Shown here: piece by piece, positions 26,151-42,523 of the stretch
How the letters are laid out: every line of letters begins with the position of its first letter
Position numbering within the stretch: position 1 is the first letter of the stretch
Virus record (IMG/VR): IMGVR_UViG_3300015184_000033
Strand: one strand, 5' to 3'
DNA length: 45,562 nt
Source: a virus
Taxonomy: Duplodnaviria > Heunggongvirae > Uroviricota > Caudoviricetes
Translations under genes and position numbers: made by a program
The notes under the pieces: generated by a model
The model's input: the letters and a program-made list of their open reading frames with translations, nothing else
Database searches by the model: none
Told to the model about the DNA's origin: nothing

Positions 26151-26226
26151 TGGTGGCCCCTACCGGATTTGAACCGATGACCGTGCGATTATGAGTCGCC
26201 TGCTCTAACCACTGAGCTAAGGGGCC
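26151..26226 (-). tRNA. tRNA with CAU anticodon (tRNA-Ile2/lysidine type more likely than tRNA-Met), CCA encoded
   Basis: Hand-folded cloverleaf: acceptor GGCCCCU/AGGGGCC, D-arm GCUC-AGUGGUUA-GAGC, anticodon loop CUCAUAA, T-arm AUCGG-UUCAAAU-CCGGU; 5' half matches remembered enterobacterial ileX. Confidence 0.8.
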
Positions 26227-36036: not shown

Positions 36037-36057
36037 AAACACATGGAGTCTCGACAA

Positions 36058-36711
36058 ATGACTATCTCTGTAGGTATTTTCAACGGAAAAGGCGGCGTAA
36101 CCAAATCAACAATTGCCCGTGCTTTAGCAGTTGCTTATGCAAAGGCCGGCTGGAATGTATGCCTGATCGATATGGATGTGCTTAACGGAACGGTAACGCG
36201 TTGGGTACAACGCAGAATGGCCAACAATATCGAACCAGCAATCGCGGCACAGCCGTGCGGCACACCATCACAAGTCCAGAAAATCATCGAATCAGAAGTA
36301 TACGACCTGGTTATCGTAGATGGCGGTGCCTACGCATCTGAATCAGTACCGAAGCTCTCTGAATTTCTGGATATGGTTATTTTGCCAACCAGATTCTCTA
36401 CCGATGACCTGGAAACCACCGTTAACACAGCTCACGGCATCGTTAAAAAGGGTGTACCAATCAAGAAAATTTGCATGGTGTTTTCCGGCGCGGCTGAAAA
36501 CGAAGCTGACTATATTGAAGCCCAAGAGTACCTGGCTAATACGCCATACTTTGTTGTCGATAAGTACATTCCCCACAAGCCAGCTCTGAGCAAAGCTCAG
36601 GATAAGGGCTTAAGCCTCATTGAGTGCTCATACGTTGCGCCACGCAAAAAGGCAGACGACGTTATTCAGGGGATTATCAACCAGCTTGAGGCTCTGACTA
36701 CTGCCGCGTAA
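36058..36711 (+). CDS. ParA/ParF-type partition ATPase
   Basis: Deviant Walker A GKGGVTKST near N-terminus; start placed at ATG 36058 with GGAG 9 nt upstream; about 217 aa as for small type-Ib ParA. Confidence 0.85.
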   Translation: MTISVGIFNGKGGVTKSTIARALAVAYAKAGWNVCLIDMDVLNGTVTRWVQRRMANNIEPAIAAQPCGTPSQVQKIIESEVYDLVIVDGGAYASESVPKLSEFLDMVILPTRFSTDDLETTVNTAHGIVKKGVPIKKICMVFSGAAENEADYIEAQEYLANTPYFVVDKYIPHKPALSKAQDKGLSLIECSYVAPRKKADDVIQGIINQLEALTTAA

Positions 36712-37065: not shown

Positions 37066-37215
37066 ATGTCCGAGCAACAATATACACGGTTACTGAAAAC
37101 TCGTCTAACCGACCTCAAACGGCTGCAAGCTGGTCGCTTATTTGCCCTGCTATCCACCAGGCCAGAATGGGTACGTGAAGCAGTTCTAAAAGGCTTAATG
37201 CGCTCCAGCGTTTAA
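37066..37215 (+). CDS. Hypothetical small protein
   Basis: 49-aa ORF from ATG 37066 with AAGGGGAA upstream. Confidence 0.35.
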   Translation: MSEQQYTRLLKTRLTDLKRLQAGRLFALLSTRPEWVREAVLKGLMRSSV

Positions 37216-37230
37216 ATTCAACCATAAAAA

Positions 37231-37248
37231 AGGCCCCCGAAGGGGCCT
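37231..37248 (-). terminator. Intrinsic terminator hairpin
   Basis: AGGCCCC-CGAA-GGGGCCT; on the minus strand followed by TTTTTATGG. Confidence 0.55.
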
Positions 37249-37253
37249 AATCG

Positions 37254-37376
37254 CTACTTGCTGCTAATGTTTATCGTCACATTCAGAGCGTTATCAGTAA
37301 TCTTCCAACCCTCCCCATGTGGCGTAAACAAAGCTCCAGTAACAACGATAAAAATACACATACAGTATTTTTTCAT
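37254..37376 (-). CDS. Small hydrophobic peptide (40 aa), candidate type-I toxin
   Basis: MKKYCMCIFIVVTGALFTPHGEGW...; SD-like AAGGG 5 nt upstream of ATG 37376; terminator immediately downstream. Confidence 0.35.
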   Translation of the reverse strand: MKKYCMCIFIVVTGALFTPHGEGWKITDNALNVTINISSK

Positions 37377-37440
37377 TGTGTGGCCCTTACAGGCCGTTTC
37401 ACGGCATCCCCACCGACGAAAATGACGCGAGAGCAAGCAC

Positions 37441-37460
37441 GCTGTTTGTGCCTGCGTGGT
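37441..37460. repeat. 20-bp direct repeat, copy 1 (GCTGTTTGTGCCTGCGTGGT)
   Basis: Matches 37691-37710 at 19 of 20 positions; lies 65 nt upstream of the small peptide ATG. Confidence 0.85.
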
Positions 37461-37690
37461 ACGGCAAGTGGATAATCCTTTCCTGAAAGTCAGTGCCCGG
37501 GTGCGAATCGGCGGAAAGGCCCCAAGCCATATTACACGTCATACCCTTCATAATGAAGGAATAAAAAACGCTTTTATTACATAAGATTACACGTAAATAA
37601 GTTAAAAACCTTCATTTTGCATGAGCTAATGAGCTAAATTTTTTTATATGAATAGTGGACTATTCACCTCAGTTGGGTAAGAATGTAGTT

Positions 37691-37710
37691 GCTGTTTGTG
37701 CTTGCGTGGT
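37691..37710. repeat. 20-bp direct repeat, copy 2 (GCTGTTTGTGCTTGCGTGGT)
   Basis: See copy 1; lies about 60 nt upstream of a plus-strand terminator. Confidence 0.85.
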
Positions 37711-37768
37711 TGTATTAGTACAACGACGTTATGCTGAAAGGACCGCGAATCCGATCAGCACGAAAGAA

Positions 37769-37793
37769 CCGTCCTCAAAAGGACGGTTTTTTT
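37769..37793 (+). terminator. Intrinsic terminator (bidirectional hairpin)
   Basis: CCGTCCT-CAAAA-AGGACGG followed by TTTTTTT on plus strand; also overlaps the stop codon of the minus-strand HTH gene. Confidence 0.5.
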
Positions 37794-38347
37794 GTTTCTC
37801 CCCCTTCCTTCCCAAATGATTCAAATGTTAATGAGAGAGAATCATTTGATATGTTCGATTTAGCGCCGTTATCGACCCAATTTCTGTATGCTTCATCACA
37901 ACAGTACCTTACAGCAGTTGGAATAACAGGAGAGCCGCCCAGAAATGAAAATCCCATTGAGCTTATGCTAATTCTTTCGAATGGCCTATTTCTCAATGCT
38001 TCAAATCCCTTGCTGTTGAAGTAACTCAGCATCAGAGGTAAAAGGTTATCCTCATCTTGACTGATTGTTCCCGGGAAAAAGTAGTAACCATGGCGATTAA
38101 ATTCGGGAATCAGTTTTTCTACCAACAACATGAAATTCATTGGGGTAATATTAAGGGCAGAGCAAGCACCAAAAAGAGCATCAACCGTTAATACAGACTG
38201 TCCGTTCTCTATCTTTGTCCATGCGTTTGGTGTTTTTCCAGCAGCTTGAGCCAGCACTCCTTGATGCACACCTCTTTCTAGCCTAAGTTCTTTTATGATC
38301 ATTAGGTGGATTGTTGAAAAACATGAGTTTTTTGACGTTTCAGTCAT
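37775..38347 (-). CDS. XRE-family HTH regulator (second repressor-like protein)
   Basis: Start placed at ATG 38347 (GGGGA upstream); HTH segment IKELRLERGVHQGVLAQAAGKTPNAWTKIENGQ. Confidence 0.55.
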   Translation of the reverse strand: MTETSKNSCFSTIHLMIIKELRLERGVHQGVLAQAAGKTPNAWTKIENGQSVLTVDALFGACSALNITPMNFMLLVEKLIPEFNRHGYYFFPGTISQDEDNLLPLMLSYFNSKGFEALRNRPFERISISSMGFSFLGGSPVIPTAVRYCCDEAYRNWVDNGAKSNISNDSLSLTFESFGKEGGETKKPSF

Positions 38348-38500: not shown

Positions 38501-38612
38501 TTAGTCTGTTAAAATCCGCCGTATTGACATGAATGCGCCATTGGTGGACACTTTCCGAGCCGTAGCAAAATCTACGGTCGGGATTGGAACCCCGATAATC
38601 ATCATGGCGCAT

Positions 38613-38635
38613 ACCGCGTTAGCGGTTTTTTTATG
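38613..38635 (+). terminator. Attenuator-like hairpin with T-run in the antirepressor leader
   Basis: ACCGC-GTTA-GCGGT followed by TTTTTTTAT; outer arms GCGCATA/TATGCG allow an alternative pairing. Confidence 0.4.
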
Positions 38636-38797
38636 CGTAAAGCACTGCTACACCCAAATTATGGTGGGGCGTGCGGGGGAGTCGTTAGACTCGCCGGATT
38701 CCATGGTGACCGGTAGTTCCAACCCTGTACGTCTCACCACCCAATGATTGGAACCAGACGGTGGTGAGTATCCTTAACCTTTAAGGGAACTATCACC

Positions 38798-38989
38798 ATG
38801 ACAAACTTACCCCATGACTATTACGTCAACCTCGTAAAGATCCTTCTCAAGAAAGCCTCATACGCCGATAAATTACGCCTGGCTGAAATCATCGAGCGCG
38901 AAGCTATGCGCATCGCCAGCAACGATAACGCTGTTTCTGACGCAAAAATCTCCCTCGTAACCAAAGTAGTTATGGGAGGTGCAAAATGA
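38798..38989 (+). CDS. Small protein preceding antirepressor (Icd-like position)
   Basis: 63-aa ORF with SD AAGGGAA; stop overlaps the antirepressor ATG (ATGA). Confidence 0.45.
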   Translation: MTNLPHDYYVNLVKILLKKASYADKLRLAEIIEREAMRIASNDNAVSDAKISLVTKVVMGGAK

Positions 38990-40155
38990 AAACGCTTCCG
39001 ACCGTTAACACCCTACAGCCTATCCTGCATAACCAGATCCCCGTTATCACTACTGAACTTTTGGCGCAGTTTTACGGCACCGAGATCAACAATATCAAAG
39101 TCAATTACACCCGTAATGCTGAAAGGTTTGTTGAGGGAAAACACTTTTTCAAAGTTGGTGGCGATGCCCTGAAAAATTTGCGGGTTACTTTAAGTAACTC
39201 ACAAAATTTGCAACCATCTTTAAGAGGGTTACAAATTTCCCCGAAAGCCCGCTCCCTCATTCTCTGGACAGAACGCGGGGCTGCACGTCACGCTAAAATG
39301 CTCGAAACCGATCAGGCGTGGGATGTATTCGAACGGCTGGAAGACTGCTATTTCAACCAGAACGCGCAAACGGCCGCGACCGTAACCGTCTCGCCAAACA
39401 ATGCTCGTGAGGTTGTCGATACGCTCAACGCCAAACCGATGTTTTACATTAAGGTGTGCAATAACGAGCCACTCACAACCTCAGCCGATGTTGCCCAGGC
39501 ATTCAGCACCACAAACAATTCCATCGTTATGGCCATCGATGCGTTACGCATTCCTCGCACAGCTGCGGCGCGTCATTTCTTTAAAGAGCAACGACCGTTG
39601 GAAGGAAGCGACCGCGAAATAACAATCTATCGCATGACAAAAGACGGATTTACCTTGCTCATGGAAAGTATCGACGGTCCAGGCGTGAAGGATATCAAGC
39701 TGGCCTACATTGAAGCCTTTAACGCTATCAGCAGCGTGTTAAAAACACAGTACGAGCGCGATCTGGCTAAACGACTGTACCAGGAAAAAACGATTATCCG
39801 CGCGGCAACAGAGCATAATCGGCTATTAACGGAACCGAACTACAGGAAGGAACTAATCAAGGAGTTTGACAAGGCAACAGGGAAAACCAAAGCGGCGCTA
39901 AATCTGCCAGCAATGACTCAGGAAAATGTGATATCAGCCTTACTTCTTGATCTGCTCAGAAACGCCAGAGCACTGATCAGCTTTGACGAAAACCTGAATC
40001 CTCAGCTCAAGCTACTACCACCGACAGGCAAAGTAGTCGACCAGGCAGATCACAACAGCATACTCAGCGTACTGGATGCAAACCTGCCAGCCAGGACACT
40101 ACAGGAGCTGATAAAAACATGTGCTGATAAGCTCGCACAGAAAAGCAGACCATAA
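38986..40155 (+). CDS. Antirepressor (AntA-like N-terminal domain)
   Basis: 389-aa ORF; N-terminus HNQIPVITTELLAQFYGTEINNIKVNYTRNAERFVEGKHFFKV matches the phage antirepressor N-terminal signature. Confidence 0.8.
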   Translation: MKTLPTVNTLQPILHNQIPVITTELLAQFYGTEINNIKVNYTRNAERFVEGKHFFKVGGDALKNLRVTLSNSQNLQPSLRGLQISPKARSLILWTERGAARHAKMLETDQAWDVFERLEDCYFNQNAQTAATVTVSPNNAREVVDTLNAKPMFYIKVCNNEPLTTSADVAQAFSTTNNSIVMAIDALRIPRTAAARHFFKEQRPLEGSDREITIYRMTKDGFTLLMESIDGPGVKDIKLAYIEAFNAISSVLKTQYERDLAKRLYQEKTIIRAATEHNRLLTEPNYRKELIKEFDKATGKTKAALNLPAMTQENVISALLLDLLRNARALISFDENLNPQLKLLPPTGKVVDQADHNSILSVLDANLPARTLQELIKTCADKLAQKSRP

Positions 40156-41632: not shown

Positions 41633-41932
41633 TCAGATGTTAAACGCTATTCGTTTTCCTGTGGGAAGCTCAACATCCAGGCTTAATTTGCCTCCCATAG
41701 CTTCAACGTAACGCTTTAATGTCGCCAGCTTTAAATCATTTCCGCGCTGCTCCAGCTTTGTTACTGCTGGCTGGCTTATACCCATCGCCTCAGCAACCTG
41801 TTTTTGTGATAACTGGAGTTCTTCACGCATCATCTGCAAGCCGACCTCAAGAATCATCTCATCTGCCATTTCTTTAATTCGCGCCTGGCTTTCCGGTGAA
41901 CGGCTGGCAATCGCCTCATCTAATGTTCTCAT
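41633..41932 (-). CDS. HigA-like HTH antitoxin
   Basis: 99-aa ORF with XRE-type HTH (LQLSQKQVAEAMGISQPAVTKLEQ); immediately downstream of toxin-like ORF. Confidence 0.65.
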   Translation of the reverse strand: MRTLDEAIASRSPESQARIKEMADEMILEVGLQMMREELQLSQKQVAEAMGISQPAVTKLEQRGNDLKLATLKRYVEAMGGKLSLDVELPTGKRIAFNI

Positions 41933-42279
41933 TACTTGCTCTCCAGTGTGTTCAGATGTGCTGCAAACTCATCCTCAGCTATACGCACCAGTTTTTCATA
42001 AAACCGCTTATCGTTACTTTTGTCTCCTGCACAAAGAACGATGGCCCGGCGAATCGGATCGAACGCATAAAAGGCTCTTATCGGACGGCCAGAAAACTGA
42101 ACGCGAAGCTCTTTCATATTTTTGTACCGAGAACCTTTTACGGTATCGGCATATGGCCTGGGTAACTCAGGTCCGTAAACCTGTAGCTTTTTCAAATCAG
42201 CCAAAACCTTTTCCTGAAGAGCGTCTTCTTGCTCATTTAGCCAGTCGTCAAATCGCTGGCTAAAAAGTACCGTCCACAT
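41932..42279 (-). CDS. HigB/RelE-superfamily toxin-like protein (Gp49-like)
   Basis: About 115 aa from ATG 42279 (AGGA upstream); motifs KELRVQFSGRPIRAFYAF and VLCAGDKSND typical of HigB-like killer proteins; toxin-first order. Confidence 0.6.
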   Translation of the reverse strand: MWTVLFSQRFDDWLNEQEDALQEKVLADLKKLQVYGPELPRPYADTVKGSRYKNMKELRVQFSGRPIRAFYAFDPIRRAIVLCAGDKSNDKRFYEKLVRIAEDEFAAHLNTLESK

Positions 42280-42523
42280 GCTCAATCCTATAACCTGTAG
42301 TTTATATCACTAACTATATAACCTGTGAGTTATAATTTCAAGAAAAACGGGGCTATTTAACATAATGGACGTTATCGGCACCACCGGATCACCGTTCATT
42401 GTCGGATCTAAAAAATCCGCTCAAAAGATCATGTTTTCCTGGGCGTTTTCCACCGTTTTTTATGTTGCTTATTTGTTAATGAAATCTCGTTTTCAGTTTC
42501 GCCTCATTTTCGACGCGAAAGCC

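What the first reader, a model, noticed from the sequence alone, without database searches (positions are those of the whole stretch)
37254..37797. Candidate type-I toxin/antisense-RNA locus: small hydrophobic peptide gene with a 20-bp repeat in its 5' region and a second copy in a divergent terminator-bounded segment
A 40-aa peptide ORF (MKKYCMCIFIVVTGALF...) on the minus strand is followed by a strong terminator. A 20-bp sequence 65 nt upstream of its ATG (37441-37460) recurs at 37691-37710, about 60 nt before a plus-strand terminator (37769-37793). A plus-strand RNA covering the second copy would be complementary over 20 nt (one G-U pair) to the minus-strand 5' UTR of the peptide mRNA, the geometry seen in trans-acting type-I systems such as zor-orz or tisB-istR. 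A 7-bp inverted repeat GAATAGT-GG-ACTATTC (37652-37667) lies just upstream of the putative sRNA.
Basis: inference. Interest (0 to 1): 0.6.

Follow-up and report, generated by a model that had tools for sequence, protein, structure and literature searches.

The report
Phage-plasmid copy of timP/TimR toxin-antitoxin

Summary
A 40-codon minus-strand ORF (37254-37376) is followed by a terminator. A 20-nt sequence (37441-37460) recurs 19/20 at 37691-37710, upstream of a plus-strand terminator. Shuffled sequence never exceeded 16/20.

The minus strand 37226-37524 matches Rfam ryfA (RF00126) at 131 bits against a threshold of 80. ryfA is the timP toxin mRNA of the timPR type I toxin-antitoxin system studied in Salmonella.

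- **Peptide:** 39% identical to E. coli TimP, with the same length and layout.
- **Plus-strand RNA:** a TimR homologue by sequence and structure. It has an unpaired 5' seed, a short hairpin, a conserved core hairpin with two compensatory pairs, and a terminator.
- **Seed pairing:** the seed pairs with stem-loop 2 of the timP leader (21 contiguous bp), as in Salmonella.
- **Covariation:** the two copies co-vary across three plasmid haplotypes and across chromosomal loci.
- **Leader switch:** the published pseudoknot (sites 1-3) and the site 2-4 interaction are conserved, with compensatory changes.
- **Host element:** a myovirus-type phage-plasmid, also isolated as Yersinia phages. The locus lies between the partition and immunity genes.
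- **Specificity:** the pair is orthogonal to chromosomal E. coli timPR.

Verdict: a new member of a known kind. Expression and toxicity are untested.

The parts
37226..37524 (-). timP toxin mRNA (Rfam ryfA homologue), about 299 nt. The start site is inferred near 37523.
   Evidence: cmscan RF00126, 131 bits (gathering score 80), E 2e-33, model positions 1-296. About 70% identical to annotated chromosomal E. coli timP.
37254..37376 (-). timP ORF: 40 aa, N-terminal Lys-Lys followed by a hydrophobic stretch, polar C-terminus ending SSK.
   Evidence: 16/41 identical to E. coli K-12 TimP, with the same hydropathy layout. NCBIfam NF040796 toxic_TimP, E 7e-5, 23 bits, positions 1-40 of 40, below the cut-off of 45. 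The AUG lies at +149, against +145 in Salmonella (PMC7667032). A variant plasmid carries an in-frame 3-nt deletion.
37231..37248 (-). Intrinsic terminator of timP.
   Evidence: It aligns to the terminator of the ryfA model.
37384..37388 (-). Shine-Dalgarno AAGGG, partly sequestered in a short stem-loop 4 (GGCCU/GGGCC).
   Evidence: Stem-loop 4 has 4 G-C pairs plus 1 G-U pair here, against 6 pairs in chromosomal timP (sequences).
37441..37460 (-). TimR-binding site: the 5' arm and loop of stem-loop 2 of the timP 5' UTR (RNA positions 65-84).
   Evidence: 21-bp helix if U37690 is transcribed, -39.7 kcal/mol. The position matches the Salmonella site in stem-loop 2 (PMC11228461).
37489..37495 (-). 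Pseudoknot site 1 (CACUGAC, upper stem-loop 1).
   Evidence: 7 pairs with site 3. There are compensatory changes relative to chromosomal CGCUGGC/GCCAGUG.
37411..37417 (-). Pseudoknot site 3 (GUCGGUG, loop of stem-loop 3).
   Evidence: The pseudoknot mechanism is described in PMC11228461.
37461..37465 (-). Site 2 (GCCGU), which pairs with site 4 to free the Shine-Dalgarno sequence.
   Evidence: 5 of 6 pairs. The mechanism is described in PMC13000454.
37393..37397 (-). Site 4 (ACGGC, 5' flank of stem-loop 4).
37529..37534 (-). Inferred -10 box of the timP promoter (TAATAT on the minus strand).
   Evidence: TAAnAT is conserved in all three otherwise unrelated intergenic versions. It was not found by the consensus scan. 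Inference.
37656..37684 (+). Inferred TimR promoter: -35 TGGACT (37656-37661), 17-nt spacer, -10 AAGAAT (37679-37684).
   Evidence: TGGAC and TTG.GTAA.AAT are invariant columns in an otherwise hypervariable spacer. At 8/12 matches it falls below the 9/12 threshold. Inference.
37650..37665 (.). Inverted repeat GAATAGT-GG-ACTATTC centred on the TimR -35 box.
   Evidence: K-12 has an inverted repeat around the -35 TTGACA of its TimR gene. Function unknown.
37691..37793 (+). TimR-like antitoxin sRNA, about 103 nt: 5' seed, hairpin 1, conserved core hairpin, terminator.
   Evidence: the core TGCTGAAAGGACCGCGAATCCGATCAGCA resembles chromosomal TGCTGGAAAGGCCGCGAACCGGACCAGCA. Two compensatory G-C to A-U pairs. 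Fold z-score -7.3.
37691..37710 (+). TimR seed, complementary to the timP leader.
37760..37795 (+). TimR terminator. It overlaps the 3' end of the convergent XRE-family gene (37775-38347, minus strand).

Best explanation
This is a timP/TimR type I toxin-antitoxin module carried by a phage-plasmid.

How it most likely works:
- The minus strand makes a roughly 300-nt timP mRNA. Its 148-nt leader folds into stem-loops SL1 to SL4. It encodes a 40-aa inner-membrane toxin with an uncleaved signal-like N-terminus.
- Translation needs the active leader fold. That fold has a pseudoknot between SL1 and SL3 (sites 1-3) and pairing of site 2 with the 5' flank of SL4, which frees the Shine-Dalgarno sequence.
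- The divergently transcribed, roughly 100-nt TimR RNA uses its unpaired 5' end to form a 20-21 bp duplex with the 5' arm and loop of SL2. This opens SL2, disrupts the pseudoknot and blocks translation initiation.
- Because the seed differs from those of chromosomal E. coli TimR RNAs, the pair is insulated from the host's own timPR.

On a low-copy phage-plasmid, next to parA, the most likely role is post-segregational killing (plasmid addiction). [quoted passage not shown]

Shown here: homology, anatomy, conserved pairings, covariation and orthogonality. Taken from the literature on Salmonella: toxicity, repression and the structural-switch mechanism. Inferred: transcription start sites, promoters and the addiction role.

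The confidence of 0.85 is for the identification as a functional timPR homologue. The addiction role alone I would put at about 0.4.
For: - **timP mRNA:** Rfam ryfA, 131 bits against a gathering score of 80, full-length.
- **Relatives:** all phage-plasmid relatives score 134-145 bits and chromosomal loci score 227-317 bits, so this is a distinct subfamily.
- **Peptide:** NCBIfam toxic_TimP E 7e-5 over the full length. It is 39% identical to K-12 TimP with the same hydropathy layout.
- **DNA match:** the window is about 70% identical to annotated chromosomal timP.
- **TimR homology:** shared core sequence and a consensus structure with compensatory pairs at columns 48/66 and 53/61.
- **Seed-target duplex:** 21 bp if U37690 is included, -39.7 kcal/mol, at RNA positions 65-85 in SL2. 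This is the same location as in Salmonella.
- **Covariation among plasmids:** three plasmid haplotypes change both copies together.
- **Covariation across loci:** over 8 loci, cognate pairs form 18-20 of 20 pairs and non-cognate pairs average 13.4. Plasmid x chromosomal combinations average 10.8 with a maximum of 13. Fifteen positions show double-sided changes.
- **Leader switch:** the pseudoknot keeps 7/7 pairs with compensatory changes, and site 2-4 keeps 5/6. The mechanism is published.
- **Coding signal:** an in-frame 3-nt indel and a retained Shine-Dalgarno sequence in a variant.
- **Host element:** phage-plasmid context with RepA, ParA and a full myovirus module, also isolated as Yersinia phages.
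Against: - There are no expression data for this locus.
- Neither promoter reaches the 9/12 threshold of the consensus scan.
- The peptide scores 23 bits, below NCBIfam's curated cut-off of 45.
- SL4 is shorter than in chromosomal timP (4 G-C pairs plus 1 G-U pair, against 6 pairs), so the switch may be tuned differently.
- The site 1-2 'locking' interaction is only 4 bp here.
- In Salmonella, derepressed native timP does not inhibit growth and no phenotype was found. Killing at native expression from a low-copy plasmid is therefore unproven.
- The element also carries a Gp49/HigB-like type II toxin-antitoxin pair, which could already provide addiction.
- Identical direct repeats could be kept alike partly by gene conversion rather than selection on pairing.
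Confidence: 0.85

Rival explanations
1. The ryfA-like RNA acts mainly as a non-coding regulatory sRNA. This has been proposed for RyfA in Shigella, UPEC and APEC, where it affects stress resistance, biofilm and virulence. The small ORF and the antisense RNA would then be secondary.
For: Papers report RyfA phenotypes in UPEC and APEC and describe it as an sRNA (PMC8205139, PMC10664665, PMC13188913). The RNA is highly structured and conserved.
Against: - In Salmonella, toxicity requires the AUG of the ORF.
- Here the ORF is intact in all variants, is kept in frame across an indel, and retains its Shine-Dalgarno sequence.
- The peptide is homologous to TimP.
- The two roles are not mutually exclusive.
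Confidence: 0.08
2. The locus is a decaying, non-functional remnant of a chromosomal timPR that hitch-hiked onto the phage-plasmid.
For: - The ryfA score is lower than for chromosomal copies (131 against 227-317 bits).
- The peptide scores below the NCBIfam cut-off.
- Both promoters are weak by consensus.
- Decayed copies do exist elsewhere, such as the timP-TimR fusion in S. enterica arizonae.
Against: - Both RNAs are more than 95% conserved across about 60 plasmids, 3 phages and 8 IMG/VR contigs, while the spacer between them is replaced wholesale.
- The ORF is intact everywhere.
- All long-range pairings are kept, with compensatory changes.
- The seed and target co-vary.
Confidence: 0.05
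3. The two 20-bp copies are DNA-level protein-binding repeats, such as a partition site, iterons or an operator near parA, and not an RNA-RNA pairing pair.
For: The locus lies directly downstream of parA and a small ORF. Palindromes are present in the intergenic region.
Against: - There are only two copies.
- Each lies inside a structured, terminator-bounded transcript that is homologous to timP or TimR.
- The same arrangement occurs in chromosomal loci with no partition genes.
- A G-U-compatible substitution is tolerated, which fits RNA pairing better than DNA recognition.
Confidence: 0.02

Closest known systems
timP/TimR (ryfA / STnc2070, RyfB) type I toxin-antitoxin system of Salmonella and E. 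coli (Andresen et al. 2020, PMC7667032; Eleftheraki and Holmqvist 2024, PMC11228461; Eleftheraki et al. 2026, PMC13000454)
   Same: - A roughly 300-nt mRNA with leader stem-loops SL1 to SL4.
- A roughly 40-aa toxin ORF at +145 to +149.
- A divergent, non-overlapping sRNA whose 5' end pairs with SL2.
- A pseudoknot between SL1 and SL3, and a site 2-4 interaction.
- Rho-independent terminators on both genes.
- A homologous TimR core hairpin.
   Different: - It is carried on a phage-plasmid rather than in the sseA-sseB chromosomal region.
- DNA identity is about 70% and peptide identity about 39%, and the peptide scores below the NCBIfam cut-off.
- The seed sequence is different and orthogonal.
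- SL4 is shorter and the site 1-2 lock is weaker.
- The intergenic region is longer (about 165 nt, against about 75 nt in K-12) and is hypervariable.
- Nothing has been tested experimentally.
hok/sok of plasmid R1 (type I toxin-antitoxin, post-segregational killing)
   Same: A plasmid-borne small membrane toxin is silenced by a labile antisense RNA. The proposed role is plasmid addiction.
   Different: hok/sok is a cis-overlapping pair. It needs 3' processing of the mRNA and translational coupling to mok. timPR is divergent and non-overlapping, and it uses a structural switch without processing. There is no sequence homology.
tisB/istR-1, zorO/orzO, shoB/ohsC (divergent trans-acting type I systems of E. 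coli)
   Same: Divergent gene arrangement. A short (18-21 nt) region of complementarity lies far upstream of the ribosome-binding site.
   Different: These are different toxin families. They use a standby-site or processing-dependent mechanism. Rfam OrzO-P and ohsC models do not match the window at their thresholds.
Plasmid-borne timP in Yersinia and Serratia plasmids (for example NC_011759, where timP is annotated)
   Same: A timP homologue on an extrachromosomal replicon.
   Different: Those are larger plasmids (60-118 kb), and I did not examine whether they carry phage genes. Their sequence is closer to the chromosomal type, and at least one is recognised by NCBI annotation. The window's subfamily is not annotated in any record examined.

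Membership tests
timPR type I toxin-antitoxin (toxin mRNA = Rfam RF00126 ryfA) | The mRNA matches the ryfA covariance model above the gathering score. | tested here: met
   131 bits against 80, E 2e-33, full model length.
timPR type I toxin-antitoxin | A conserved small ORF of about 38-41 codons starting near +145, encoding a protein with an N-terminal signal-like hydrophobic segment. | tested here: met
   AUG at +149, 40 aa. Mean Kyte-Doolittle hydropathy over residues 4-17 is 2.36, against 2.34 in K-12 TimP. 16/41 residues are identical.
TimP protein subfamily (NCBIfam NF040796 toxic_TimP) | HMM score at or above the curated cut-off of 45 bits. | tested here: not met
   23 bits, E 7e-5, aligned over positions 1-40 of 40. 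The peptide is a significant but divergent relative. This explains why the gene is not annotated in any record seen.
timPR type I toxin-antitoxin | A divergent, non-overlapping sRNA upstream of timP whose 5' end is complementary to SL2 of the 5' UTR and which ends in an intrinsic terminator. | tested here: met
   20-21 bp helix between 37690/37691-37710 and RNA positions 65-85. Terminator at 37760-37795. The location agrees.
timPR type I toxin-antitoxin | The sRNA is homologous to TimR beyond the seed. | tested here: met
   Shared core hairpin and architecture, with 2 compensatory pairs between the plasmid and chromosomal types. No Rfam model for TimR matched the window or the K-12 locus L001.
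timPR type I toxin-antitoxin | A pseudoknot (sites 1-3) and a site 2-4 long-range interaction in the leader. | tested here: met
   7/7 and 5/6 pairs, with compensatory substitutions relative to chromosomal homologues. This is an in silico result only.
timPR type I toxin-antitoxin | The site 1-2 interaction that locks the inactive conformation. | tested here: inconclusive
   Only 4 bp (GGCA/UGCC, -6.5 kcal/mol) in the window type.
timPR type I toxin-antitoxin | The toxin is growth-inhibitory and membrane-damaging, and the sRNA rescues by blocking translation. | not testable with these tools
   Shown only for Salmonella timPR.
Plasmid addiction (post-segregational killing) module | The antitoxin is less stable than the toxin mRNA, and loss of the plasmid kills or arrests segregants. 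| not testable with these tools
   Stability data exist only for Salmonella. The context next to parA on a phage-plasmid is suggestive.

The most novel reading that the evidence does not exclude
A mobile, seed-swapped timPR acts as an orthogonal addiction or superinfection-exclusion module of a P1-immunity-type phage-plasmid. Its expression is wired to the element's state through the hypervariable, palindrome-bearing promoter region between partition and immI. That would give timPR, whose biological role is still unknown, its first natural function. The three natural seed haplotypes would act as incompatibility or specificity determinants.
Probability: 0.3. Interest if true: 0.5.

Novelty: new member of a known kind. 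Interest (0 to 1): 0.3.

Why it matters
The biological function of timPR is an open question. Its discoverers found no phenotype for the chromosomal locus (PMC7667032).

A conserved copy on a low-copy phage-plasmid, insulated from the host's copy, points to a testable role in plasmid or prophage maintenance, or in phage exclusion.

The divergent copy is also an independent natural test of the published structural-switch model. The pseudoknot, the site 2-4 pairing and the seed-SL2 pairing are all kept through compensatory changes, while SL4 and the site 1-2 lock are weaker.

In practical terms, the gene pair is missing from the annotation of about 60 plasmids and 3 phage genomes, including the widely used quality-control strain E. 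coli ATCC 25922.

Tried and rejected
- **Full-length duplex prediction.** RNAduplex of the whole TimR against the whole timP was uninformative (z -1.4 against shuffles, giant internal loops). I replaced it with a contiguous-helix search and short-segment energies.
- **First collection pattern.** AAAGGNCCGCGAAYCNGAYYAGCA was mis-registered against the chromosomal type. It found nothing in GTDB representative genomes and only the phage-plasmid family in IMG/VR. A corrected pattern found 10 chromosomal loci.
- **Promoter and terminator scan.** The scan found no sigma-70 promoter at its 9/12 threshold and missed the TimR terminator. Promoters are therefore inferred from phylogenetic footprints.
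- **Weak RNAI hit.** The Rfam RNAI match on the sRNA (28 bits against a gathering score of 47) was rejected as chance resemblance of a multi-hairpin antisense RNA.
- **Pfam.** No hit for the peptide.
- **Leader alignment.** The MAFFT alignment A2 of the leaders mis-registers the 3' arm of SL1 by 1 nt, so I did not use the count of structure pairs on it. Pairs were counted per sequence with anchored regular expressions instead. A first version of the seed table used the wrong anchor and was discarded.
- **Literature.** Searches found no paper linking ryfA or timPR to phage-plasmids. This covers only the held library.
- **Not run.** I did not run the large protein searches or structure prediction. 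A 40-aa membrane peptide with clear RNA-level homology did not justify the cost.

Full report
**Observation**

A 40-codon ORF on the minus strand runs from the ATG at 37376 to the stop at 37254. It is followed by a G+C-rich hairpin with a T-tail at 37248-37231.

A 20-nt sequence at 37441-37460 recurs 19/20 at 37691-37710. In 40 dinucleotide-preserving shuffles of 37100-38000, the best 20-mer direct match was 14-16/20.

A strong hairpin and T-run lie at 37760-37795 on the plus strand.

The small inverted repeat is real but sits at 37650-37665, two bases from the stated position.

**Identity of the minus-strand RNA**

A scan of the whole window against Rfam gave a full-length match of 37524-37226 (minus strand) to ryfA, RF00126. 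The score is 131 bits against a gathering score of 80, with E 2e-33.

ryfA was first listed as a non-coding RNA. It is now known to be the mRNA of TimP, a 38-aa toxic inner-membrane protein of Salmonella. Its translation is repressed by the divergently encoded sRNA TimR, through an 18-nt duplex between the TimR 5' end and the timP 5' UTR (PMC7667032).

The window is about 70% identical to annotated chromosomal timP in roughly 2000 complete E. coli genomes.

The peptide matches NCBIfam NF040796 (toxic_TimP) end to end at E 7e-5. Its 23 bits fall below the curated cut-off of 45. It has no Pfam hit.

A global alignment with K-12 TimP gives 16/41 identities: MK..C.CI..IV.GAL.T ... DN.L.V..N..SSK. 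Length and hydropathy layout are the same.

The AUG lies at +149 of the RNA, against +145 in Salmonella.

**Identity of the plus-strand RNA**

I read the K-12 locus (L001) and chromosomal loci from Shigella, Escherichia spp. and Kluyvera. All TimR genes share one architecture: a roughly 20-nt 5' segment identical to part of the local timP leader, then a short hairpin, then a conserved core hairpin, then a terminator.

The window's RNA has the same architecture. Its core is TGCTGAAAGGACCGCGAATCCGATCAGCA, against chromosomal TGCTGGAAAGGCCGCGAACCGGACCAGCA.

The RNAalifold consensus of ten TimR sequences leaves the seed unpaired. It shows two G-C to A-U compensatory pairs that separate the plasmid type from the chromosomal type, at columns 48/66 and 53/61.

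The window sRNA folds far better than shuffles (z -7.3).

**Pairing and covariation**

The window seed and its target form 21 contiguous pairs (2 G-U) at -39.7 kcal/mol, counting U37690, which lies one base upstream of the inferred start site. The helix covers RNA positions 65-85, which are the 5' arm and loop of stem-loop 2. This is where TimR binds in Salmonella.

Among twelve phage-plasmid variants, both copies change together in three haplotypes: GCTGT/GCTGT, CCGC/CCGC and GCTGC/GCTGC.

Across eight loci, cognate pairs form 18-20 of 20 pairs. Non-cognate combinations average 13.4. Plasmid x chromosomal combinations average 10.8, with a maximum of 13. Fifteen positions show double-sided changes.

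In a register-free search, the window TimR forms at most a 10-bp helix (5 G-U) with K-12 timP. K-12 TimR copy B forms at most 7 bp with the window's timP. The plasmid pair should therefore be insulated from the host's chromosomal system.

**Leader mechanism**

The published model requires a pseudoknot between SL1 (site 1) and the SL3 loop (site 3). It also requires pairing of site 2 with the 5' flank of SL4 (site 4) to expose the Shine-Dalgarno sequence. A site 1-2 interaction locks the inactive state (PMC11228461, PMC13000454).

| Interaction | Window | Chromosomal type | Pairs in window |
|---|---|---|---|
| Site 1 / site 3 | CACUGAC / GUCGGUG | CGCUGGC / GCCAGUG | 7 of 7, two positions changed on both sides |
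| Site 2 / site 4 | GCCGU / ACGGC | GGCCGU or GACCGU / GCGGUC | 5 of 6 |
| Site 1 / site 2 | GGCA / UGCC | varies | 4 bp only |

SL4 is shorter here, with 4 G-C pairs plus 1 G-U pair, against 6 pairs in the chromosomal type. The Shine-Dalgarno AAGGG lies half in its loop. The switch is thus conserved in outline but may be set differently.

**Promoters (inferred)**

The 165-nt spacer between the two genes exists in at least three unrelated versions among plasmids whose timP and TimR are more than 95% identical.

Three short blocks are conserved across those versions:
- TGGAC, read as the TimR -35 box (TGGACT at 37656-37661).
- TTG.GTAA.AAT, read as the TimR -10 box (AAGAAT at 37679-37684, 17-nt spacer). 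This places the start site at about G37691, the first base of the seed.
- TAAnAT on the minus strand at 37529-37534, six to seven bases before the 5' end of the ryfA model.

The consensus scan found no promoter at its threshold.

**Context and distribution**

The same locus, at 83-99.7% identity, occurs in the following places:
- About 60 non-mobilisable Escherichia (one Klebsiella) plasmids of roughly 46-52 kb.
- 70 of 5426 complete E. coli genomes.
- Three Yersinia phages isolated on Y. pestis.
- Eight IMG/VR contigs, in seven of which the timP RNA lies with isrK and C4 RNAs; the eighth (L016) is cut off before timP.

The E. coli ATCC 25922 plasmid encodes RepA, ParA, a full myovirus structural and lysis module, and a RelE/ParE-type toxin-antitoxin pair. 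The element is therefore a phage-plasmid.

In the window the locus lies between parA (36043-36711) with two small ORFs on one side, and an XRE-family gene plus a P1-type immI region on the other. The immI region comprises isrK, C4 RNA and an ORF6N/Rha antirepressor.

No record examined annotates either gene.

Other timP-like hits exist on Yersinia and Serratia plasmids, and one of these is annotated as timP. No paper in the held library links timPR or ryfA to phage-plasmids.

**Verdict**

The locus is a member of the known timPR family and forms a divergent, mobile, unannotated subfamily.

The mechanism is carried over from Salmonella by homology and conserved pairings. Expression, toxicity and the proposed addiction role are untested.

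Novelty: a new member of a known kind. Interest is modest (0.3). Its value lies in suggesting a natural function for timPR and in giving an independent comparative test of the structural-switch model.

Noticed in passing
window 38559-38744 (+), 38798-40155 (+): isrK (70 bits) and C4 antisense RNA (84 bits) are followed by a 63-aa ORF and an ORF6N/Phage_pRha protein. This is a P1-type immI immunity region directly downstream of the toxin-antitoxin locus. It is conserved in all IMG/VR relatives.
   Followed up: partly
window 37525-37690: The timP-TimR intergenic region exists in at least three unrelated sequence versions among plasmids whose flanking RNAs are nearly identical. Only short promoter-like blocks are shared. 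The pattern looks like cassette-like replacement of the regulatory region.
   Followed up: partly
window 37545-37559 and 37609-37615: A perfect palindrome CCTTCATAATGAAGG overlaps the putative -35 box of the timP promoter, and the half-site CCTTCAT recurs 64 nt away. It may be an operator. It is present in 7 of 12 variants.
   Followed up: no
window 37775-38347 (-): An XRE-family HTH gene has its 3' end overlapping the TimR terminator. The gene is present in some relatives and absent in others, where TimR is followed almost directly by isrK/C4.
   Followed up: partly
window 41633-42285 (-): A Gp49/HigB-like toxin (117 aa, PF05973) overlaps a downstream HTH_3 protein (99 aa). This is a type II toxin-antitoxin pair, so the element carries at least two toxin-antitoxin systems.
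   Followed up: partly
L026 (Salmonella enterica subsp. arizonae CCUG 6322T), 1180-1458: The first roughly 65 nt of timP and both promoters are missing. The timP body is fused to TimR exactly at the shared repeat, as expected from recombination between the two direct copies.
   Followed up: partly
L001 (E. coli K-12) 975-1075 and 1296-1400: K-12 has two TimR-like genes. The one adjacent to timP pairs poorly with K-12 timP (11-bp helix) but perfectly with Shigella timP (17 bp). The distal copy pairs with K-12 timP (20 bp, 3 G-U). A fragment of the timP 5' end lies between them.
   Followed up: partly
window 26154-26226 (-): A tRNA gene (67 bits) lies within the phage-plasmid.
   Followed up: no
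plasmids NC_011759 (Y. pseudotuberculosis), NZ_CP074148 / NZ_CP074138 (Serratia), NZ_CP007231 (Y. similis): timP-like sequences closer to the chromosomal type occur on other, larger plasmids, five of them typed as conjugative. Four 'plasmid' records of 1.4-4.9 Mb in PLSDB look like mislabelled chromosomes.
   Followed up: no
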